From positions 90,001 through 122,000 of the forward strand of contig NC_000908.2 of NCBI RefSeq assembly GCF_000027325.1: DNA of 32,000 bases, in the 5' to 3' direction. The notes under the pieces are model-generated. The model was not told the origin of the DNA. It was given only the letters and a program-made list of their open reading frames with translations, and did not search any database. Origin of the DNA: Mycoplasmoides genitalium G37. GTDB lineage: Bacteria; Bacillota_I; Bacilli_A; Mycoplasmatales; Mycoplasmoidaceae. The position numbers and the translations under genes are program-made. Below are positions 8,906 to 32,000 of the stretch, piece by piece; within the stretch, counting starts at the first letter, position 1; every line of letters starts with the position of its first letter.

Positions 8906-9319
8906 ATGCGACAGTTTATTAAGCTTAGCCTCTTAGTCTTTGTCTTGCTTTTCTTAAGTGAACTTATCTGTAGGTTCTCTTTACGCTTAGTAAATTCTAT
9001 TAAAGCGAGATATAAATCTTCAGTATTTTCCTACACTGCTTGTTTGCTATTTTTAAAGAGTTTTCAAAACTTTTCTAATGCTTTTCAGAAGTTAGCTAAC
9101 TGGGTATTTTGATTTGAAAATGATGTTAATGAACTGTTATCTATCTTTTACTTTAACTTTGATCAGAAGAGTGAAAAAGTAGATTACAACTTCTTTAATG
9201 GTTATAAAGTTACTGCTCAAAAAGTAGTTGAAAAAGAACAGTTATTAACTTGTAAGTTAAGTGATTACTACCGTTTATTTAGAGATAAAACCTTTTGATT
9301 TGAACTTATCAACAACTAA
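8906..9319 (+). CDS. Hypothetical membrane-anchored protein, 137 aa (MG074-like)
   Basis: ATG 8906 lies 2 nt after the uvrB stop. Track ORF 8906-9112 extends across TGA 9110-9112 and 9296-9298 to TAA 9317-9319. N-terminal hydrophobic helix LSLLVFVLLFLSELI. No motif I recognise. Confidence 0.7.
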
Positions 9320-9382: not shown

Positions 9383-12300
9383 ATGAAATTAAGTACAATA
9401 ACTACTATCTGCTTGTCAATATCTGGTGCTTTTGGTACTACTGCAATTGCTTTACCAACTACAGTAGCATTGTTAAAAAACCACCAACAGCAAAACACTG
9501 AAAAACAACAAAACCCGATTAAAGATATCCGCTTTGGTTTAAACAATGTACAGGTTCCAAATACCATTCCGTTACACCAAACTGTGGTTGAAGTGACCAA
9601 CAACAAAGCAATTGTTGATTACAAAGATGCACCCCAAAAATTCTTTTTAGCTAAAAGTGCGTTAAATAATAAACTCCAAGTTGAGTTTGATAAGTTCTTG
9701 TTAAGAACAGGAGTGATTAATGCTTTAAATGCAGATTTGAAAGAATGGATAGACCAAACATTATTTATCCCCAATCAAAGTTTTTTTGATCTTAGTGCTA
9801 ATAAACTCAATTTAACTTTGTCAAATCAAAGCGAAGTGAGTTTAGATCTTGAGTTTATTTTTACTAACTTTAGTGATAAAAATCAACCATTAAAACTCCC
9901 CTTTGATGGTAGTGTGGTGGTTAATGCTAACGAGTCATACACCTATTCAGTTAAAGCAACACTACAGAAACTAAAAGTATTGACTTATTCAAGAGCAGAT
10001 CATTCTGTAGGGATTAGTTATGCAATACCAACAGTGAGTTTAAATGGCAAAACTCAAAATGACTTTAGTTTTAACCCCTTTAAAAGTAATATTAACTTTG
10101 CTTTCAAAAATGTCTACAATGCTTTAAATCCGTTTGAAGCACAACAATACCTGGTTGGCCAAGGTAAGTTTTTAAACCAAAAAGTTAATGCTGATGATGT
10201 TAAAAATGACATTAATAATCACATTGAAACCCAGTTTAATGTTGCTAAAATCACAGCAACTCTTTTAGGAAAAGCTTTTAAGCAGTTTGGTGAACATAAA
10301 AATGGTCAACCACTTTCACTTTTAAAAGTACTAAGTGGATTAAACAATGAGTTTAAACAACTCTTTAATTATGTCAGACCTGGTTTAGGTGATTTTGTTA
10401 GTGATTTAATCCAAAGCTCCAGTCAATCAAGTAATAAAAAAACTGTTTACCAGCTATTATTTGAAAACAAGACAACAATTATCCACTTGTTGCAAGATCT
10501 TAATATTAGTGAACTGAACTCTGTTTTACCAGTTGTTGATATTTTGTTTGAAGGGATTAACAGTGCAGAATCACTATACCAAAGGATCCAATCATTTAAG
10601 GATTTAATTGTTCCTGCTTTAAAAGCTGATAAGCAACTTAAGAGCTTAGAAGCGATTATTTTAGCAGTTTTAGACAATCCTAATACCTATGTTTTTGATC
10701 TTGTTTACCAAAACAAATCGATTCTGTTTAATTTGTTAAGTGATTTTCTTAAAAACACCGCAAACACTTTACCATTTCTTCAAGAACAGTTTGATATTGT
10801 TAACCACTTATTTGCCAATGAAGCGATCTTTGATCTGTTTTCCAATGCTGACTTTGTTGAGAAGATTGCTGATCTTTTTTTAGCAAAACAAAAGGTACAA
10901 GAAGTTAATAATGATGGAACTAAATCAACAAAAATTGTTGATTCGATTTTAGTTGCTACCCTTAAGGGTTTAGTTGGTGATCAGCTCAGTTCAATCACTG
11001 AACTGTTAAACATCTATATCTTTGAAAATGAATTTTTAAACAGAAATGATAGTAATAGTTCAGTTAAAAAACAACAAACTGATAGTCTAAAAAATCTGTT
11101 TAGCGTAATTGGTGATATTTTAAGTGAGACCAATGTTAACAAGATCACTTTACACGCAGTTAAAAATAATGAACTTCTTTCGTTAGTTGAAACAGCTTCA
11201 ACACTAAAAATTAAACATCTTAATGTTCAATACAAAGTTTTAGTTGATAAGTTTGAATTGAAAAACAGTTTCATTAAGGAACTATTAAATTTTTTCCCAG
11301 ATACTAAAGATATCACCCCAACTATTAAAAAGGTACTGTTTGAAAGTGAAAATTATAAAACACTCCGTAAGAAGTATGAAAATGAAGGGTTCCCAGGTTA
11401 TCACTGGGCTAAGTTCATTGTCCCAGGTACCTTCAATTCTGCTGAAAACACTTTCTATTCTGCTATTGATAAAACTAAATCAATTCGCGATCTGTTTGCT
11501 GACATGTTATTTGGTAAGAGTTTAGAGAGTGTTAATGACAGTGATAGTTTTATCAAAATTAATGGTTCATTTACATTAAAGTACCACGGTGATAACTTAA
11601 ATTTACTCCCTAACTACCACTCATTAATCACTAAGAATGTTGGTTATCAAATAGTTAATGTTAATTTTCATATTGATGCAAGATTGCTAACTGCAGAACT
11701 ACAAAACACGGTATTTTCAAATCCAAAACCAGTTATTAAATCACCTGTTGAACTCTCCAAATCCTTATTTGAAGTTTGAAAGACTATCTTTGAAAACTCA
11801 GTTAACCAAATCTTAAAAAAAGAATATACTTTCAAAGATAATCTAAAGTTCTTTCCTTTTAAAGCTGATGGCTCCTCGCGCTTAGAATTTGATCTATCAA
11901 AACCTGATCAACGTGTTATTCCTTTTGCTTTTGTTGATGGTTATCAATTCCAACTAAAAAAAGAGTTAATTCCTAACAAAGAAACAAAAAAAGAAGCTAA
12001 TTCTTCACCAGTTTTAAAGCTTTATGATGCAGTTAAAAGAAACGATAGACAATATCGTCCTAATCACCACCATGATGATCTGAGAAACTATCCTAGCCTT
12101 AAATCTCAACTAGAACTTATATTAAACCTTGGTGATAAGCTTAAAGCTAATAATGATTTTATAGATGACACTGTTGTTAATGCTTTGCAATATAAAACTA
12201 GTTTTAAATCTACTCTAAAAGTTAACAGTTTAGGAATTCCTATTAACCTTTTCTTTTTCACATTGTGACTTAAATTTAACTTAGAAATTCCAATTGACGG

Positions 12301-12457
12301 TTCATTAACATTAACATCCGTTAATGTTGTTTTCCCATACAGTTTGTATGATACTAGTTCAAATGAATTTACAAGGATAGTCGATCGCTTAAATTTCACT
12401 GATACCAACTTCTATCTAAAAGATGCATTTCCTAATTTCTGGTTTGTTGGTTTCTAG
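9383..12457 (+). CDS. Large surface or membrane-anchored protein, 1024 aa. Homolog of the M. pneumoniae 116-kDa surface antigen P116 (MG075-like)
   Basis: Track ORF 9383-11779 continues in frame through TGA 11777-11779 and 12266-12268 to TAG 12455-12457. N-terminal hydrophobic anchor [26 protein letters not shown] without a canonical lipobox. N/K/L/F-rich with no catalytic motif. Assignment to the P116 family is from recall of gene order and size, not from a search. Confidence 0.85.
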
Positions 12458-12870
12458 AGTAATGAAACTAAACCACTAACTAAACTACCAACTAGATAAA
12501 CAATCAAGTTCATCCACCAAAACCCACTAGTTTTTTGTCTGTAAGTTGCACTTTGATCTTGATATTGATTAAAACTAACTAATGGTTTTGCATAAACACT
12601 ACCTAACTTAAGATATCTGTTAAACTTACTAATTTCATACCGCATTCCATCACAAGTTTTTAAACGGAATATCCCCTGTAAACAAACAAGTAATAAGTTA
12701 ACAAAAAAGCTAGTTAGTACTGAATTTTTAACAACCACTGTAAAATTGGTTGACTTGTGAAAATAAATAGTAATGTTTAAGATCAAAAAGAAAAGGATTA
12801 GATAAAATACGCTAACAACTATCCCACCATACTCAGCTTTATTACTGTTTTTGTTTTGATTTAAAACCAT
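12454..12870 (-). CDS. Small hypothetical integral membrane protein, 138 aa, about 3 TM segments (MG076-like)
   Basis: ATG (complement of 12868-12870) is preceded by an in-frame TAG. Hydrophobic stretches [39 protein letters not shown] and [21 protein letters not shown]. The only minus-strand gene in the window. Its stop (complement of 12454-12456) overlaps the stop of the P116-like gene. Confidence 0.7.
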
Positions 12871-13013
12871 CTAGTAATCGTTATTAGTATCATTTTTTTA
12901 TAAAATAATCAAGAACATCAGCACATGATCTTTATCACTAAATTTATGTTTGGTTTCAAATGAAGTTGGATTATAAATCCTGCTTTATTGTAATCATGCT
13001 TTAGATTTAGAAG

Positions 13014-13040
13014 CTGGTTACTTTTGTTTCAGGTAACCAG
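13014..13040 (+). promoter_or_regulatory. Leader hairpin A upstream of oppB
   Basis: Perfect 8-bp inverted repeat CTGGTTAC (13014-13021) / GTAACCAG (13033-13040) with an 11-nt loop. Confidence 0.4.
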
Positions 13041-13060
13041 TACCATTTCCAAAAAACTGA

Positions 13061-13088
13061 GAACCTGAAAAAAACAGGTTCTTTTTTT
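13061..13088 (+). terminator. Intrinsic-terminator-like hairpin B, 16 nt upstream of the oppB start
   Basis: GAACCTG (13061-13067), A7 loop, CAGGTTC (13075-13081), then a T7 run (13082-13088). An A6 run at 13051-13056 makes it symmetric, so it could act in both directions. Confidence 0.5.
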
Positions 13089-13103
13089 ATTTCTATTTAG
13101 TAA

Positions 13104-14327
13104 ATGTTCAAGTATATTCTTAAACGATTAGGACTAGCAGTAGTTGCGATGTTTATCGTAATGTCTATAGTCTTCTTTTTAGTGAACGCTACTGGTAATG
13201 TTCCCTTGTCAGCCACTTCTGCAAGAGATATTGCTGCAGTGCAAGCACAACTACAAGAGTTTGGGTTTAATGACCCTATTATAGTTAGGTATTTTCGCTA
13301 TTGAGCTAAGCTATTTTCCTTTCAAGCTGATGCTTTAGGAATTTATTATGCAAACCCTAACCAAACAATTGGTGAGATTGTGTTTGCAAGAGTACCAAAT
13401 ACCTTATATGTGGTTTTAATCTCTTTTTTAATTGGTTCATTGCTAGGGATCTTTTTAGGGATGGTTTCAGGATTGAATAGAGGGAAGTTTTTAGATGCAG
13501 CAATTAATGTGTTGGTAGTTTTATTTGTATCTATTCCTTCATTTGTAGTGGGATTAGGGTTACTTAAACTAGCAGGATTTTTAAATCTACCACCACGGTT
13601 TATTAACTTTGATGATGCTTTTTTTAGCTTTGATCGTTTCTTGCTTGCATCAATTATCCCGATCCTTTCATTGGTCTTCTATTCATCAGCTGCTTTTACA
13701 TACAGGATTAGAAATGAGGTGGTGGAAGTGATGAATCAAGACTATATTAAAACTGCAAAAAGTAAGGGACTTGGGATGTTTGCTGTAGCTAGGTATCATA
13801 TCTTTAGAAACTCGATTATTCCTTCTATTCCCTTGTTTGTATTTGGAATCTCAGGTGCTTTTTCAGGTGGATTTATTATTGAGTCTTTGTTTGGAGTACA
13901 AGGGGTATCTAGGATCTTAATTGATTCAGTGCAAGTTAATGAAACTAACATGGTAATGTTTAATATCTTGTTTATCCAAGGGATTCCCTTATTAGCAAGT
14001 GTCTTTATTGAATTTATCTATGTTTTAGTTGATCCTAGAATTAGGATTGCAAATAGTTCTAATGTTAGCTTATTAACTAAGTTAAAGTTCTTAAGTTCAA
14101 GACACCAATGGTTAATGAAGTGAAACAAGATTAACAGTGATAATGCCCAAAATATTGTGTTTAACTCGCCACTGCACCACCAGCTATTAGAACTCAATGC
14201 AATTGATTACAAAACAAAAACAGTTCAACTAACAACTGAACAAAAAACTGCTCTCAATATCAGTGCAACTGCTAACTTTATCTTACTTGGTAACAAGTGT
14301 TTAAAACTCAAAACAATCCATGGATAG
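13104..14327 (+). CDS. oppB: Oligopeptide ABC transporter permease OppB (407 aa) with a C-terminal extension
   Basis: Track ORFs 13104-13304 and 13380-14123 share one frame, join via TGA 13302-13304, and extend past TGA 14121-14123 to TAG 14325-14327. Typical N terminus MFKYILKRLG. Permease core ends at the usual LVDPRIRI (about 14046), followed by 92 further codons. Confidence 0.9.
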
Positions 14328-15451: not shown

Positions 15452-16660
15452 ATGGCACTTAAAAGAAGTAATTTCTTTGTTGATAAAGACCAACAACTAA
15501 AGGATAATTTGATCTTAGACATCACTGATTTACATGTTAACTTTAAGGTTAAAGATGGGATCTTACATGCTGTTAGAGGGATTGATCTTAAGGTAGAGAG
15601 GGGTAGTATTGTAGGGATTGTAGGTGAATCAGGCAGCGGTAAATCAGTGAGTGTTAAATCAATTATTGGTTTTAATGACAATGCACAAACTAAAGCCAAA
15701 CTGATGAACTTTAAAAACGTTGATATTACCAAACTAAAGAAACACCAGTGGAAGTATTATAGAGGGACATATGTCTCTTATATTTCCCAAGACCCATTGT
15801 TTTCTCTAAACCCAACAATGACGATAGGAAAACAAGTAAAAGAAGCGATTTATGTGGCTTCAAAAAGAAGGTATTTCCAAGCTAAATCAGACTTAAAATT
15901 TGCTTTATCAAATAAGGAGATTGACAAAAAAACTTATAAAAGTAAACTAAAAGAGATCAAACAAACCTACCAACAAAAAATAAAACCTATCAATGTAGAG
16001 AAAAAAACCTTAGAGATCCTGCAGTTCATTGGTATTAATGATGCCAAGAAACGTTTAAAGGCATTCCCAAGTGAGTTTTCAGGAGGGATGAGACAGAGAA
16101 TTGTGATTGCTATTGCAGTAGCAACTGAACCTGATTTAATTATTGCTGATGAACCTACTACTGCACTTGATGTAACTATTCAAGCTAAGGTATTAACTTT
16201 AATTAAACAACTCCGTGATCTACTTAATATCACTATTATCTTTATTAGTCACAATATCTCTTTAATTGCTAATTTCTGTGACTTTGTTTATGTTATGTAT
16301 GCAGGGAAAATTGTAGAACAGGGTCTGGTTGAAGAGATCTTTACAAATCCACTCCATCCCTATACATGGGCATTGATTTCTTCAATTCCTGAACAGAAAG
16401 ATAAAAACAAACCACTAACTTCTATCCCTGGAGTTATTCCTAACATGTTAACCCCACCAAAGGGTGATGCTTTCGCTAGTAGAAACCAATATGCTCTAGC
16501 AATTGACTTTGAATACCATCCACCCTTTTTTGAAGTTACTAAAACCCATAAAGCAGCAACTTGATTGCTGCATCCCCAAGCCCCTAAAGTTGAACCACCT
16601 CAAGCGGTTATTGATAACATTACCTTAACCAAAAAAGCACTGCAATTTAAAGATCAATAA
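15452..16660 (+). CDS. oppD: Oligopeptide ABC transporter ATP-binding protein OppD (402 aa)
   Basis: Walker A GESGSGKSV, Q-loop ISQDP, signature FSGGMRQR, Walker B LIIADEPTTALD, H-loop ISHN. Extends past TGA 16562-16564 to TAA 16658-16660. Confidence 0.93.
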
Positions 16661-19206
16661 TGGAAAACCAAAACACAAAAAAACCACTTGTTAATGTTAA
16701 GGCTTTGAGCATGATGTTCAAGGTCAGAGGAACTCTTTTTAAAGCCCTTGATGAAATTGGTTTTACTGTTAATGAAGGGGACTTCTTTGGGGTTATTGGT
16801 GAGAGTGGTAGTGGTAAATCAACCACGGGAAAATGTTTGATTAGATTAAACATTCCTAGTGGTGGAAAGATTGAGATTGCCAACCACTTACTCTCAGGAA
16901 AAAAACTTACTAAAGAGAATAACCAGTGGTTAAAACAAAACATCCAAATGGTGTTTCAAGACCCTTATTCATCTATTAACCCTACTAAAAATGTGCTAAC
17001 TGTGATTTCAGAACCGCTGGTAATTAGTAAAACTGTTTTTGGGGAAACAAAACAATACTTAAAGAGTTTGCAAAAGCTCTCTTTTAAAGTAAAGAAAACA
17101 TTGTTAAGGAATGATATTGAACTTGAAACCAAGTTTCACAATAACTTTTTTAAAACCGTTATTAAGCAAATTAATGAATCATTGTTTAACTTTGAAGATC
17201 TTGATTACAAGGATTTAAAACCATCACATTTAAGGCAAAGAATCATAAATGAAACAGATAAATTCATTGAAAAAATTAGAAGTGAGTTTGCCCTTTTTTA
17301 TGATTTTTATGCTAACCAATCAGTACCCTTGCAAAAGGCATTAGATGATGCGAATTCCTCTTTAACACCATCTAGTGTTATTGAGTTAAAAAACCAGTTA
17401 AAAGCATTACAAAAACAAGCAAAGATTTCAAAGGCAGCATGGGATATTTTACAAGCCCTAAAGCAAAACCAAAAGGAGTTGAAAGATTATGAAAATTATG
17501 TCCATTTTGAACTCCAAAAAAAGCCACGAATCTATCTTAATACCTGACTTTTAACAACCAAAAGCTACATTAAAGATTCCAAGCAAAACATGCAGCTTAC
17601 TGATGATATCTTTGCTTTTTCATATAACAGTATGGTTGACAAGAAAAGAAACTTGGTTTTAATTCTTTCTAAATACTATAAGCTGTTACCTTATTTCTAT
17701 GACCAATCAGTATTTGATAATGCTGATCAATTTGATGAAATTGCTAACCTTATCTTTTTTGATTTAGTTGAAACATTGCTTGGTGTAACTAGTTTATTTA
17801 ATGATGCATTAGCAGCTGATAAAGTCCCACTAATTAAGTTTGCTAAGTTCTTAAATAAGTTATGTGACTTGCGCTTTTTAACCTTAAAAAAGAGCTTTAA
17901 AAAAACAAGAGTAAGTTGTAGCTTTAGTTTTAACAGTGAACCTGAAATCTTGTTTGCCAACAGCTGCTATGATTTGCAACAAATGCCTCAAATCATTAAA
18001 CCCTTTTGAGAGAAGCTTTTTAATGAACAGAACTACCAAAAGATTATTGATTCAGTTTCAAGACTGAATGTAATGATTGCAAATTACATTACCAAAGCTT
18101 TTGAAATTAAAAAAACTATTGATGAAAAACTAAGGGAGTTTAAACAACAAAATTTAGCTTTAAAAAAAGCTTATTCAGCTAACAAGAAAAGTGAGGCAAA
18201 CAAAGCTTCCATTAATGAGTTAAAAGTCAATTTAAAAACACTTAAAAAACAGCTTAAACAAGAGAAAAATACTACTAAAAAACAATCAAAAAAGGAATTA
18301 AAACCACTTTTAAAAGAACACCATACTGCTTTAAAACTCCATGATGAGTTTAACCATGATTTACGCAAGTGGTTCAAAAAACTTAACTTTATGGTTAAGA
18401 AATACAACCGACTGGAAAACAGCCAGAAAAAGTTTTGTTTAGTTAAAAAGTTAAAAGCGCTTTTCAAAAAACAGGATGAAACACTGCAAAGTGAATTAAG
18501 ACCAAAACTAAAAACATTTGGTGTAATTAACTTTGAGTACAAACGTGCAGTCAAAGAGTCCAATGTCTTTCGATTGGTGCATTTTGCTAAAAATATCTTT
18601 AAACCATTCTTGTTTTTTAACCTCACCAAGATTTTTATGAGAAATAAGGTCTATGAAGCACTTGATAGTGTTGGTTTAAAAAGAGAACATGCTTACAGAT
18701 ACCCCCATGAATTTTCAGGCGGACAAAGACAAAGAATTGCTATTGCCCGTGCTTTAATCACTAAACCCAAACTGATTATTGCAGATGAATTGATTAGTGC
18801 ACTTGATGTTTCTATCCAAGCCCAAGTTATTAACATCTTGAAAGACTTGGCTAAAAAACACAACTTAACTGTGCTTTTCATTGCCCATGATTTATCAATG
18901 GTGCAAACTGTTTGTAACCGTTTGATCATTATGCATAGGGGCAAGATTGTTGAACGGGGCAGTGTGGATGAGATCTTTTCAAATCCAGTTCATCCCTACA
19001 CCCGTTCCCTAATAAAAGCATCTCCTAAGTTAAGCAAAATCAATGTTGATCTCGCTTCTTTTGATGAAAACTTCACTTATGATAGTGATTATTCACTAAC
19101 CAATATGCCCTTTTATATTAAAGTTCCTAACAGTGAAGAACATGAACTTTACTGTACTCAAAAGCAATTTGATAGTTGAATCAAAGAGGCTACGCCGATA
19201 AATTAA
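16660..19206 (+). CDS. oppF: Oligopeptide ABC transporter ATP-binding protein OppF, 848 aa, with a very large insertion in the nucleotide-binding domain
   Basis: Track ORFs 16660-17547, 17590-18009 and 18073-19179 share one frame, joined by TGA 17545-17547, 18007-18009 and 19177-19179. Stop TAA 19204-19206. Walker A GESGSGKST (16798-16824) and Q-loop VFQDP (about 16957). The signature FSGGQRQR begins only at 18712. Then Walker B LIIADELISALD and H-loop IAHD. Confidence 0.92.
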
Positions 19207-26925: not shown

Positions 26926-27552
26926 ATGCACTACAATATCATTCTTTTAGTTGATGGTACGCTTAGTTTAGAACAAGCTAACCAAGTTGAACAAAAACAC
27001 CAAAAATTGCTTGAAAAGGCAACTGAATTTAAAAGTGAATACTTAGGTTTAAAAGAGTTGGCTTACCCCATTAAAAAGCAACTTTCTGCTCACTATTACA
27101 GATGGAGTTTTCATGGTGAAAGCAATTGTACTAAGGAGTTTAAAAGAGCTGCTAACATCAATAAGCAGATAATAAGAGAGTTAATTATTAACAGAGAAAA
27201 AGACTATGGTTATTTAGGTTCAGTTAACCCTAAAAAACAACAACTGTCTTTGCAGAAGCTAACCAAGTATAATGAGATTATTGCTAGTGAAAATAATCCT
27301 GATAACCCAGATGCGCCTGTCACTTCTGGTCTAGCTTCTGTTAAACCACGGCTATCAAGAGTTGAAAAACAAAAGGAACGTGAACTTGAAAAGTGAACGG
27401 TTGTTCACCAATCAGGTAACTTTGATACTGTACAGATCAATCCTTATCGTCCTAGGATAAAACGCTTTTTACAAAACAACCAACAAACCTCCCAAGCTAA
27501 TAATAACCAACCTCGTTTTCAAAATCAATTTAAAAAAGGAGCAAAACCTTAG
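26926..27552 (+). CDS. rpsF: 30S ribosomal protein S6 (208 aa) with a long C-terminal tail
   Basis: The N-terminal region of about 100 aa is S6-like (YNIILLVD..., LGLKELAYPIKK). The frame continues past TGA 27394-27396 to TAG 27550-27552. Confidence 0.88.
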
Positions 27553-30190: not shown

Positions 30191-31387
30191 ATGAAACTGA
30201 AGTTTTACAAACTACCTTTAATTACTACAGCATTTAGTTTTGTATTTTTAACTGCTTGTTCAACACCCCAATCTTCCTTTTTTCTCCCTGCACAAACAAC
30301 TATTAGTACTTTAAAAATTAATGGTATGGAAAACAAAACAGGTTATTTTCTTGAAACGCAGCGTTCTCGTGGTAGTTACAATCCCACCGCTTCACTTACT
30401 ATGATTAAGTTAGGAGATGAAAAAGAGTTTAAAAACGTAGATACAACCAAGCAAGATGAAGTTTTGTTTGCCAACATTTATGGTGGAATCTCTTCATTGC
30501 TTAACTTCAGAATTATCCAACCGATGTTAACCTACTGAAACTTAGTTAACAACTCATTAAGTCAGATTGGTAGTACTAATGACTTAATTACATTCAAAGA
30601 TAGTGGATATAAAGATCAACTTGCAAAAGCGCTTGCTAACAATCTCATAGTTGCTGATGAAGGTAATAATAACTTTTGGTTTGGTTTAAAAGCCCTAAAG
30701 TTTGATACGGTTAAACTCCAAGCTAATAATACTGCTACTAGTTCAACAAGAGCTTCAACTACTCAAAATACTAATAATAAGATTGATGCACGTGAAAAAA
30801 TCACCATTAATGGGAATGGTGGAACAAATAATGATCAAAATGCTACTGTTCAAAAGTTGATAGGTATTGAAAATATTGAAGTTGAGTTTAGCTTTGTTAA
30901 AACTGGTTTTAATGGAAATGAGATTAAGTTTGAAGATTATGTAACAGATTCTTCCCCCACAACATCTTTATTAAAGCAAGTTTGAAAAAGTAAGTGAAAT
31001 ACCGAGTTGACCCACACCAGCTTTAAATTCAAACTCAATTCTTTCAATGTTTTGTTAACTTATCAATTGGAAGCAAACCAAAAAAGCCAATATCTTCCCA
31101 ATGGCTTTAGCTTTCTTTTTCCATCTAATTTAGAAGGAAAGATAGATAGTTCAAAAAGCTATTGAAACAATCTTGTTGATTTTTCAAAAAGAACCACAAA
31201 TGAAGAGAACACAATGCTACTAACTGATTTGCAAAAGAAACAAGATCAAGTGAATCGGTTTGTTGGTTTTATTGGTCAAAACCACTTTACTTTAAGTGCT
31301 AACAGCATTAATGAAAAGCAGTTTAACGATGCTAGTACTGCTGATTTTTTTAAAGCAATCTTTCAAAAAGTGAGTATCAATGAATAA
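30191..31387 (+). CDS. Putative lipoprotein, 398 aa (MG095-like; from recall, MG067/MG068/MG395-type family)
   Basis: Signal peptide plus lipobox MKLKFYKLPLITTAFSFVFLTAC|S. Track ORF 30191-30538 extends in frame through four TGA codons to TAA 31385-31387. N/T/S-rich mature part. Confidence 0.8.
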
Positions 31388-31570: not shown

Positions 31571-32000
31571 TTGAAAACACAAAAAAATATCTTTAAGGTC
31601 AAGGCCTTACTACTTTCACTTTTTTCTGCTGCTGTTACCATCACTATTTTTGCTTTACCTATCTTTGCAAACAATGGTTCTAAAACTGATTTAGGTTTGC
31701 TTTCTAAAAATAGTGCTGATTTTTTAGGTAGTTCAAAAAGAAGTCTTGCTGGCTTTGATACTCCTTTTAGTCCAGATAACCTCCAGTATTTAGAAAAAGA
31801 AACTGATTATGATCAGAACTTTAAAAGTTTTACTGAAAAGTTTAAAGATGAAAAAATAACTAACAACCAACTTGGTATTGTTGATATCTATAACTTATTC
31901 AGTGGTTTTCACAAGAGTGTCAAAAGCACAGTTGACTTAATGAACCAACTGCAAAAGCAAGTTGAAGCTGCTAATGCTATCTTCCCAGTTGATGATGCTT
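31571..32000 (+). CDS. Secreted or membrane-anchored protein, 5' fragment (MG096-like; from recall, MG032/MG096/MG288-type family); continues beyond the window
   Basis: Frame is open from 31505 to the window end, and the first canonical start is TTG 31571. Encodes MKTQKNIFKVKALLLSLFSAAVTITIFALPIFANNG, a signal-peptide-like N terminus. Absent from the ORF track because no stop lies in the window. Confidence 0.7.
   Translation, partial: MKTQKNIFKVKALLLSLFSAAVTITIFALPIFANNGSKTDLGLLSKNSADFLGSSKRSLAGFDTPFSPDNLQYLEKETDYDQNFKSFTEKFKDEKITNNQLGIVDIYNLFSGFHKSVKSTVDLMNQLQKQVEAANAIFPVDDA

What the first reader, a model, noticed from the sequence alone, without database searches (positions are those of the whole stretch)
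9383..12457. 1024-aa P116-like surface protein: a large orphan fold in a minimal genome
It is the largest gene in the window. It has an N-terminal membrane anchor but no lipobox. I could not recognise any catalytic or nucleotide-binding motif anywhere in its 3 kb. From recall, the M. pneumoniae ortholog (P116, MPN213) is an essential immunodominant surface protein. It was recently reported to have a novel fold with a large hydrophobic cavity that extracts cholesterol and other lipids from the environment. If that holds here, this is the lipid-scavenging device of a cell that cannot make its own lipids. How it hands lipids to the membrane, and whether the flanking unknown genes take part, is unresolved.
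Basis: partly seen in the sequence, partly recalled or inferred. Interest (0 to 1): 0.7.

Follow-up and report, generated by a model that had tools for sequence, protein, structure and literature searches.

The report
Known lipid-scavenging surface protein MG075 (P116)

Summary
Under the mycoplasma genetic code (TGA = Trp), 9383..12457 (+) is one 1024-codon ORF and the largest in the window. Its product is 100% identical to Mycoplasmoides genitalium MG075. It is 51-52% identical, end to end, to M. pneumoniae P116 (PDB 8A9A, E = 0). It matches Pfam PF23707 "P116" over the full length (1392 bits) and NCBIfam "P116 family lipid acquisition surface protein" (781 bits).

An AlphaFold2 model superposes on the P116 cryo-EM structures (TM 0.78 and 0.84), and no other PDB fold matches at E <= 0.001. 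The residues published as functional are kept:
- the dimer-interface Trp;
- the N-domain Trp;
- the membrane-inserting Phe residues;
- the F loop (FAFVDGF becomes FAFVDGY).

The bridge and finger helices are significantly amphipathic.

Lipid transport by MG075 itself is still inferred from orthology.

The flanking genes MG074 and MG076 are linked to it only in M. genitalium and M. pneumoniae, not in M. testudinis. Published work shows the P116 ectodomain transfers lipids on its own.

One unexplored piece remains: a conserved C-terminal beta module (aa ~931-1024) that is absent from every modelled structure.

The parts
9383..12457 (+). Complete CDS of MG075, the P116-family lipid acquisition surface protein (1024 aa, table 4, stop TAG 12455-12457)
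   Evidence: ORF; 100% identical to M. genitalium MG075; P116 family
9383..9475 (+). N-terminal membrane anchor (aa 1-31): basic K2 followed by a hydrophobic helix; no lipobox
   Evidence: KD 1.64 for residues 6-24; single non-conserved Cys10; helix 2-40, low pLDDT; the literature describes an N-terminal TM helix plus linker
9476..9565 (+). Gln/Asn-rich flexible linker (aa 32-61), equivalent to P116 residues 30-59
   Evidence: residue map; pLDDT < 50 for residues 1-73
9566..10120 (+). N-terminal ('thumb') domain (aa 62-246). Contains W122 (=W121), F88 (=F87), I215 (=F214) and F228 (=F227), the equivalents of the membrane-docking residues
   Evidence: 53.5% identity to P116 60-245; beta-rich in the model; residue roles from PMC10023570 and PMC12487902
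10121..11974 (+). Core ('hand') domain (aa 247-864): bridge helix, amphipathic finger helices, palm beta-sheet and dimerisation helices, which together form the hydrophobic lipid cavity
   Evidence: TM 0.84 to 9FCH, TM 0.78 to 8A9A; amphipathic helices; hydrophobicity pattern r = 0.81-0.91 against P116
10187..10297 (+). Bridge helix (aa 269-305, = P116 268-304)
   Evidence: map; helix 270-303, pLDDT 81-87; amphipathic, z = 3.3, p = 0.0005
11405..11407 (+). Codon for W675, equivalent to the dimer-interface Trp681 of P116
   Evidence: Trp in 9 of 10 family representatives; the W681A mutation weakens the P116 dimer (PMC10023570)
11906..11974 (+). F loop / hinge (aa 842-864): [12 protein letters not shown]848, F850 and Y854 correspond to F854, F856 and F860
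   Evidence: 67% identity; role in membrane insertion and lipid caging from PMC12487902
11777..11779 (+). In-frame TGA (codon 799) read as Trp
   Evidence: aligned with Trp in P116
12266..12268 (+). In-frame TGA (codon 962) read as Trp
   Evidence: aligned with Trp in P116
11975..12172 (+). Poorly conserved, mostly helical connector (aa 865-930); includes an HHH tract
   Evidence: 37% identity for P116 868-957; pLDDT 41-60 around residues 870-910
12173..12454 (+). Conserved C-terminal beta module (aa 931-1024). Predicted as four long strands. PY (P985, Y986) is invariant across the family. It ends in FPNFWFVGF. No experimental structure covers it
   Evidence: 63% identity for the last 73 aa; conservation; models; no PDB fold match at E <= 0.001
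8906..9319 (+). Upstream neighbour: MG074-like small membrane protein (137 aa, DUF5426). Not shown to belong to the system
   Evidence: PF17473, 197 bits; 38.5% identical to the M. pneumoniae neighbour; none in the M. testudinis locus
12454..12870 (-). Downstream convergent neighbour: MG076-like small membrane protein (138 aa, MPN214 family). Its stop codon overlaps the MG075 stop by 4 nt. Not shown to belong to the system
   Evidence: NF045743, 270 bits; overlap conserved in M. pneumoniae; found only in M. genitalium and M. pneumoniae

Best explanation
The gene encodes MG075, the M. genitalium ortholog of M. pneumoniae P116. P116 is a surface-anchored, homodimeric, ATP-independent lipid transfer protein.

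Shown here:
- The protein has an N-terminal membrane helix and a flexible linker.
- The sequence, predicted fold, amphipathic helices and key residues of the core match P116.

Inferred from orthology to P116 (PMC10023570, PMC12487902, PMC12708652):
- The core forms a large hydrophobic cavity holding about 20 lipids per monomer.
- One monomer touches a host membrane or lipoprotein with its charged face (D-docking).
- The other monomer inserts the aromatic residues of the F loop and N-terminal domain into the bilayer (N-docking). Here these are F848, F850, Y854, F88, I215 and F228.
- Lipids splay tail-first through the distal core access into the cavity.
- The finger helices move outward as cargo accumulates.
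- Once full, cargo engages the F loop and the protein detaches.
- Wringing of the dimer on its flexible linker lets the cavity face the mycoplasma membrane and unload down the concentration gradient.

This would supply cholesterol, sphingomyelin and phosphatidylcholine to a cell that cannot make them. That M. genitalium needs exogenous sterol is established knowledge about the species, not something tested here.
For: Identity and family:
- 100% identical to M. genitalium MG075; 51% identical at 100% coverage to the 1030-aa M. pneumoniae protein.
- PDB 8A9A/8A9B 'Lipid binding protein P116 (MPN213)': E = 0, 1021 bits.
- Pfam P116: 1391.8 bits against a cutoff of 27, model positions 1-1041 of 1041.
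- NCBIfam 'P116 family lipid acquisition surface protein': 781 bits against a cutoff of 65.

Fold:
- AF2 model has pLDDT 71 and pTM 0.66.
- Foldseek gives E = 9.4e-72, TM 0.78 and 792 aligned columns to 8A9A_A, and TM 0.84 to 9FCH_A. Nothing else matches at E <= 0.001.

Functional residues:
- W121->W122, W681->W675, F87->F88, F214->I215 (hydrophobic, as the paper says holds for all species), F227->F228, F854->F848, F856->F850, F860->Y854.
- Tyr is the commonest residue at the last position across the family.

Cavity-forming character:
- 22-28% of 18-residue windows in the core and finger regions exceed the 95th percentile of shuffled helical hydrophobic moment, against 5% expected.
- 9 of 12 predicted helices between residues 270 and 579 are individually amphipathic at p <= 0.05.
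- The hydrophobicity pattern correlates with P116 at r = 0.83-0.91, and at r = 0.38-0.69 with homologs only about 20% identical.

Expression and surface location (from the literature):
- An MG075 peptide was detected by mass spectrometry (PMC12453214).

Mechanism: taken from PMC10023570 and PMC12487902.
Against: - I found no paper in the searchable library that tests lipid binding or transfer by MG075 itself. Function rests on orthology at 52% identity.
The evidence for a cavity is indirect.
- The AF2 model is only moderately confident (pLDDT 71), with several finger segments at 50-60.
- Dimerisation is inferred from one conserved Trp.
- The unloading step into the mycoplasma membrane is hypothesised even for P116.
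- The role of the conserved C-terminal module is unknown.
Confidence: 0.9

Rival explanations
1. MG075 keeps the P116 fold but has a diverged role in M. genitalium. It might have a different lipid cargo or source suited to the urogenital niche, or act mainly as an immunodominant surface antigen with reduced transport activity.
For: - Only 52% identity to P116.
- Substitutions at two docking positions: F214->I215 and F860->Y854.
- No direct functional test of MG075 was found.
- MG075 is strongly immunoreactive in patients (PMC12077152).
Against: - Both substitutions are conservative and lie within the family norm. Tyr is the commonest residue at the F860 position, and position 214 is hydrophobic in all species.
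- The hydrophobic pattern of the bridge and finger helices is kept (r = 0.83-0.91).
- P116 itself binds a broad range of lipids.
- M. genitalium has the same sterol dependence (established knowledge).
Confidence: 0.07
2. It is primarily a cytadhesin, which was the original proposal for P116.
For: [quoted passage not shown] An antibody to the core domain reduces localisation of M. pneumoniae to atherosclerotic tissue (PMC12708652).
Against: - Antibodies against the P116 ectodomain did not affect adhesion or motility, and the protein is spread evenly over the cell rather than at the attachment organelle (PMC10023570).
- The fold is a lipid cavity with bound lipids.
- The antibody effect on tissue localisation is explained by blocked lipid uptake and growth.
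Confidence: 0.02
3. The ORF is a pseudogene or a truncated 798-aa product, because two TGA codons interrupt it.
For: Under table 11 the frame stops at 11779.
Against: - Both TGA codons align with Trp in the M. pneumoniae protein.
- Every large gene in the window becomes continuous only under table 4.
- The region after the first TGA is 37-67% identical to P116, and the last 73 aa are 63% identical.
- Public databases hold the 1024-aa protein.
Confidence: 0.01

Closest known systems
M. pneumoniae P116 (MPN213; PDB 8A9A, 8A9B, 9FCH, 9GVG; Pfam PF23707; NCBIfam NF045696)
   Same: - Same length class (1024 against 1030 aa).
- Colinear alignment from Met1 to the C-terminal FWFVGF.
- Same domain order: TM anchor, linker, N-terminal domain, core with bridge helix and finger helices, F loop, C-terminal region.
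- Same key residues.
- Same predicted fold (TM 0.78-0.84).
- Same genomic neighbourhood: secA-uvrB-DUF5426-P116-MPN214(-).
   Different: - 48% of residues differ.
- F214->I and F860->Y.
- A 9-residue deletion in the loop after helix 536-553 (VEVAKAEAKD is missing).
- The 865-930 connector is the most diverged part (37% identity).
- MG075 has one Cys (C10) in the anchor; P116 has none there.
- No direct biochemical or structural data exist for MG075.
Distant P116-family members (for example M. testudinis P0003; the literature also names M. pirum, M. amphoriforme, M. tullyi and M. gallisepticum)
   Same: - Same architecture and length (999-1168 aa).
- N-terminal hydrophobic anchor.
- Conserved F228, W675, the aromatic F loop and the C-terminal PY motif.
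- P0003 scores 829 bits on NF045696.
   Different: - Only 19-22% identical.
- Large insertions in the N-terminal domain.
- Different gene neighbourhood: MFS transporter downstream, no DUF5426 or MPN214 genes.
Eukaryotic and bacterial lipid transfer proteins (SMP/TULIP domains; large lipid transfer proteins such as lipovitellin and MTP)
   Same: It works like them: a hydrophobic cavity shuttles lipids without ATP. The P116 authors note that the N-terminal domain resembles SMP domains.
   Different: There is no membership. The best non-P116 Foldseek hits (lipovitellin, MTP, vitellogenin) have E >= 0.02, probability <= 0.06 and TM about 0.06-0.09. The cavity is far larger and takes a broad range of lipids.

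Membership tests
P116 family (Pfam PF23707 / NCBIfam NF045696) | Full-length match to the family profiles above the curated cutoffs | tested here: met
   PF23707: 1391.8 bits (cutoff 27), protein 2-1024 against model 1-1041. NF045696: 781.4 bits (cutoff 65). PDB 8A9A: E = 0.
P116 family | Architecture: N-terminal TM helix, flexible linker, small N-terminal domain, large core domain | tested here: met
   Hydrophobic segment 6-24. Colinear alignment with the P116 domain boundaries. Secondary structure of the AF2 model.
P116 family | Unique 'half-open hand' fold: bridge helix, four pairs of amphipathic finger helices, five-stranded palm sheet | tested here: met
   AF2 model against 8A9A_A: TM 0.78, rmsd 5.7 A over 792 columns. 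Against 9FCH_A: TM 0.84. No other PDB fold at E <= 0.001. The model's confidence is moderate (pLDDT 71).
P116 family | Large solvent-accessible hydrophobic cavity | tested here: inconclusive
   Indirect support only: significant amphipathicity of the bridge and finger helices and conservation of the hydrophobic pattern.
P116 family | Conserved dimer-interface tryptophan (W681) and homodimer formation | tested here: met
   W675 aligns with W681 and is Trp in 9 of 10 family representatives. Dimerisation itself is not testable with these tools.
P116 family | [quoted passage not shown] | tested here: met
   F88, I215, F228, F848, F850 and Y854. The two changes are conservative and typical of the family.
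P116 family | Binds and transfers cholesterol, sphingomyelin, phosphatidylcholine and other lipids without ATP | not testable with these tools
   Shown for M. pneumoniae P116 only. No paper testing MG075 was found.
P116 family | Surface-exposed, immunogenic, essential | not tested
   Literature only. MG075 is found in lipid-associated membrane extracts and is seroreactive in 87% of infected adults (PMC12077152). A peptide was seen by mass spectrometry. I did not look up essentiality in M. genitalium.
Bacterial lipoproteins (considered) | Lipobox with invariant Cys at the end of the signal peptide | tested here: not met
   The only Cys (C10) sits in T-T-I-C inside the hydrophobic helix and is absent from P116.

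The most novel reading that the evidence does not exclude
The conserved C-terminal beta module (aa ~931-1024) may be a second membrane-interacting element.

What is known about it:
- The last 73 aa are 63% identical to P116, more than the core domain.
- The PY motif is invariant in all ten family representatives aligned.
- It has a hydrophobic FPNFWFVGF terminus.
- It was cut off the P116 expression constructs (residues 30-957) and is absent from the resolved models (60-868).

What it might do: tether the C-terminus to the mycoplasma membrane, or provide the surface over which cargo is handed to the cell's own bilayer. That is the step still only hypothesised for P116. The self-sufficient in-vitro picture would then be incomplete for the delivery half of the cycle.
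Probability: 0.2. Interest if true: 0.45.

Novelty: already known. Interest (0 to 1): 0.12.

Why it matters
P116-type proteins explain how sterol-dependent, genome-reduced mycoplasmas get membrane lipids with a single ATP-independent protein. They are also candidates for antibody or vaccine intervention and for serodiagnosis, and MG075 is already used as an M. genitalium-specific antigen.

For this window the result is a confident annotation, not a discovery. The gene, its family, its fold and its mechanism are published.

Two things are added here:
- a residue-level check that the M. genitalium ortholog keeps every published functional element;
- evidence that the neighbouring unknown genes are not conserved partners.

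The C-terminal beta module is also flagged as the part of the family that no modelled structure covers.

Tried and rejected
- **Word-indexed homolog search.** It returned only MG075 and P116, with a single query and with a 10-sequence profile. The 8000-candidate limit was reached in both searches. The exhaustive profile search was needed to see the family: 13 representatives in 1.84 billion.
- **Genome-collection scans.**
  - The MG075+P116 alignment found no confirmed locus, so M. genitalium and M. pneumoniae seem not to be retrievable there.
  - The 10-sequence alignment was too divergent to derive patterns.
  - Only M. testudinis could be fetched, so synteny was tested in a single distant species.
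- **C-terminal module, structure.** Foldseek of the module alone gave no significant match. The weak top hits were long beta hairpins of pore-forming proteins (perforin-2, pleurotolysin, MAC, gasdermin, CsgG), with TM <= 0.31 and E >= 0.04. I treat these as generic hairpin resemblance, not evidence.
- **C-terminal module, amphipathicity.** Only one of the four predicted strands (959-990) is significantly beta-amphipathic, so a transmembrane beta-hairpin reading is not supported.
- **Internal repeats.** A profile-profile search for an internal repeat (C-terminal module against N-terminal domain or palm) found nothing. It also failed to detect the published N-domain/core structural duplication, so the test has no power.
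- **Rfam.** A scan of the whole window gave no hits.
- **Promoters.** The sigma-70 scan found no more sites than shuffled sequence.
- **Cavity volume.** It could not be computed because model coordinates are not exposed.
Full report
**Observation**

The tool's default code (table 11) closes the frame at 11779, giving 798 aa. Read with the mycoplasma code (table 4, TGA = Trp), the frame starting at ATG 9383 runs to TAG 12455-12457. That gives 1024 codons with two in-frame TGA codons, at positions 799 and 962.

Both TGA codons align with tryptophans in the M. pneumoniae ortholog, where W799 and W962 are invariant columns. The gene is therefore intact, not a pseudogene. It is the largest ORF in the window; the next largest are 874, 848 and 806 aa. 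The window is about 30-37% G+C, and all its large genes become continuous only under table 4.

**Identity**

The protein is 100% identical to Mycoplasmoides genitalium MG075. It is 51% identical over 100% of its length to a 1030-aa protein, M. pneumoniae P116 (52% in the pairwise alignment).

- Against the PDB sequence set, the best hit is 8A9A/8A9B, 'Lipid binding protein P116 (MPN213)': E = 0, 1021 bits, query 32-1024. It is followed by 9GVG and 9FCH, which are shorter constructs of the same M. pneumoniae protein.
- Pfam gives PF23707 'P116' at 1391.8 bits across the whole model.
- NCBIfam gives NF045696 'P116 family lipid acquisition surface protein' at 781 bits.

**Anatomy**

I mapped the published P116 domain boundaries (PMC10023570) through the alignment:

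| Residues | Element |
|---|---|
| 1-31 | membrane anchor |
| 32-61 | Gln/Asn-rich linker |
| 62-246 | N-terminal domain |
| 247-864 | core domain |
| 269-305 | bridge helix (within core) |
| 842-864 | F loop (within core) |
| 865-930 | poorly conserved connector |
| 931-1024 | conserved C-terminal region |

Residues 6-24 are the most hydrophobic stretch in the protein. The single cysteine, C10, lies in T-T-I-C inside that helix and is not present in P116.

**Fold**

An AlphaFold2 model was built from a 10-sequence family alignment. It has mean pLDDT 71 and pTM 0.66. It shows a beta-rich N-terminal domain, a long helix at 270-303 in the position of the bridge helix, a run of helices from 313 to 585, and long palm strands (608-627, 722-745, 752-765).

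Foldseek against the PDB returns 8A9A_A (E = 9.4e-72, target-normalised TM 0.78, 792 columns) and 9FCH_A (E = 2.5e-48, TM 0.84). Nothing else matches at E <= 0.001. The next hits are lipovitellin, MTP and vitellogenin, with TM about 0.06-0.09, which is not meaningful. The fold is shared with P116 and, as the P116 authors reported, with nothing else.

**Cavity-forming character**

I could not compute a cavity because coordinates are not exposed. The sequence evidence is consistent with one:

- 22% of 18-residue windows in the core, and 28% in the finger region, exceed the 95th percentile of shuffled helical hydrophobic moment. [quoted passage not shown]
- The bridge helix and 8 of the 11 finger-region helices are individually amphipathic at p <= 0.05.
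- The hydrophobicity profile correlates with P116 at r = 0.91 (bridge helix), 0.83 (fingers) and 0.81 (palm and dimer region). It still correlates at r about 0.4-0.7 with homologs only about 20% identical.

**Functional residues**

Every residue singled out in the P116 papers is kept or conservatively replaced:

| P116 residue | MG075 residue | Published role |
|---|---|---|
| W121 | W122 | centre of the N-domain aromatic cluster |
| W681 | W675 | dimer interface; W681A weakens the dimer |
| F87 | F88 | membrane docking |
| F214 | I215 | membrane docking; the paper states this position is hydrophobic in all species |
| F227 | F228 | membrane docking |
| F854 | F848 | F loop |
| F856 | F850 | F loop |
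| F860 | Y854 | F loop |

In the 10-member alignment, W675 and F228 are nearly invariant. The position of F850 is aromatic in every member, and Tyr is the commonest residue at the Y854 position.

**How it most likely works**

This section is inference from orthology. P116 is a homodimer. Each core holds a cavity of about 18,000 cubic angstroms, which was found filled with lipids. It extracts phosphatidylcholine, sphingomyelin and cholesterol from serum and HDL (PMC10023570).

The isolated ectodomain moves lipids between liposomes without ATP. Docking proceeds in steps (PMC12487902):

1. One monomer contacts the membrane through its charged face.
2. The other monomer inserts the F-loop and N-domain phenylalanines.
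3. Lipids enter tail-first through the distal core access.
4. Accumulated cargo then engages the F loop and releases the protein.

An antibody to the core blocks cholesterol uptake and growth (PMC12708652). MG075 retains all the parts this mechanism needs, so I assign it the same mechanism with about 0.9 confidence.

Direct evidence for MG075 is limited. A peptide has been identified by mass spectrometry ([17 protein letters not shown], hexosylated at S581; PMC12453214). [quoted passage not shown] I found no paper testing its lipid activity.

**Family breadth**

An exhaustive profile search of 1.84 billion cluster representatives found only 13 proteins at E <= 0.001, and 5 at E <= 1e-30. The full-length ones are 999-1168 aa and 19-22% identical to MG075. 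One of them is from M. testudinis and scores 829 bits on the NCBIfam model. The literature lists M. pirum, M. amphoriforme, M. tullyi, M. testudinis and M. gallisepticum, and finds none in Ureaplasma, Acholeplasma or M. hominis. This is a small, clade-restricted family.

**Flanking genes**

- Upstream, 8906-9319 (+) encodes a 137-aa DUF5426 protein, MG074-like.
- Downstream, 12454-12870 (-) encodes a 138-aa MPN214-family protein, MG076-like.
- Around them lie secA, uvrB and oppBCDF, which I identified by reading the translations.

M. pneumoniae has the same order, secA-uvrB-DUF5426-P116-(minus-strand gene). The neighbours there are 38.5% and 63% identical to MG074 and MG076.

At the M. testudinis P116 locus the neighbours are different. 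Upstream are a 152-aa protein with no family match and a 245-aa membrane protein with only a sub-threshold Pfam hit. Downstream is a Mycoplasma MFS transporter. There is no tblastn match to MG074 or MG076. The MG076 family was found only in M. genitalium and M. pneumoniae, although that search method is limited.

These two species are close relatives that also share the surrounding gene order. The shared neighbourhood is therefore not evidence of functional coupling. The self-sufficiency of the P116 ectodomain in vitro also argues against obligatory partners. This rests on a single distant locus, so it is suggestive, not conclusive.

**The one unexplored part**

The last 73 residues are 63% identical between MG075 and P116. 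That is more than the core (53%) and far more than the preceding connector (37%). P985 and Y986 are invariant in all ten family representatives aligned.

[quoted passage not shown] The resolved models cover residues 60-868, and the Foldseek target 8A9A_A has 809 residues.

AF2 predicts four long strands at 931-956, 959-990, 998-1012 and 1018-1023. It does so both in the full-length model and for the module alone (pLDDT 75.5).

The evidence does not assign it a function:

- Foldseek finds no significant match. The weak top hits are long hairpins of pore-forming proteins and carry no weight.
- Segment 945-963 is the second most hydrophobic in the protein, but it is below the level typical of a TM helix (KD 1.33). 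It is also not hydrophobic in distant homologs.
- Only strand 959-990 is significantly beta-amphipathic.

Its function is open. It is the natural place to look for the still-hypothetical step of unloading into the mycoplasma membrane.

**Verdict**

MG075 is named as the P116 ortholog in the primary literature and in curated family databases. Interest is low (0.12). The residual novelty is the uncharacterised C-terminal module.

Noticed in passing
window 12173-12454 (MG075 aa 931-1024): Conserved C-terminal beta module. The last 73 aa are 63% identical to P116, and PY is invariant across the family. It lies outside the published P116 expression constructs and all resolved models. It is predicted as four long strands and has no significant PDB fold match.
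   Followed up: partly
window 12454-12457; L001 7618-7621: MG075 (+) and MG076 (-) converge, and their stop codons overlap within 4 nt (CTAG). The same 4-nt convergent overlap occurs in M. pneumoniae (TTAG). There is therefore no room for a terminator between the two genes.
   Followed up: partly
window 12985-13103 (+), in the intergenic region between divergent MG076 and oppB: Two strong hairpins sit just upstream of the oppB start codon. One is a stem of about 11 bp at about 13013-13040. The other is a perfect 9-bp stem followed by a T run at 13059-13083, 20 nt before the oppB ATG. The MFE is -30.8 kcal/mol, z = -3.9 against shuffles, and there is no Rfam match. It looks like a terminator or attenuator-like leader of the opp operon, or the end of a small transcript.
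   Followed up: partly
window 16660-19206 (+): The second ABC ATPase of the opp operon (oppF-like) is 848 aa. A very long Lys-rich insertion lies between its Walker A region (GESGSGKS, near residue 50) and the signature motif (SGGQRQR, near residue 665). This was noted from the translation only.
   Followed up: no
window 30191-31387 (+) and 31571-32000 (+): The first is a 398-aa lipoprotein with a clear lipobox (LTAC). It has no Pfam family but matches NCBIfam 'MG095/MPN233 family lipoprotein'. It is followed by a DUF240 protein that runs off the window end.
   Followed up: partly
window 26926-27552 (+): The ribosomal protein S6 homolog is 208 aa. The Pfam S6 domain covers only residues 2-88, leaving a C-terminal extension of about 120 residues rich in Gln, Asn and Lys.
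   Followed up: no
L002 (M. testudinis) 11494-13713 and 16535-18277: Two paralogous membrane proteins lie just downstream of the M. testudinis P116 homolog, with similar N-terminal sequences. The first matches the Pfam Mycoplasma MFS transporter family (98 bits) and carries a Pro/Gln-rich C-terminal tail; the second was not scanned.
   Followed up: no
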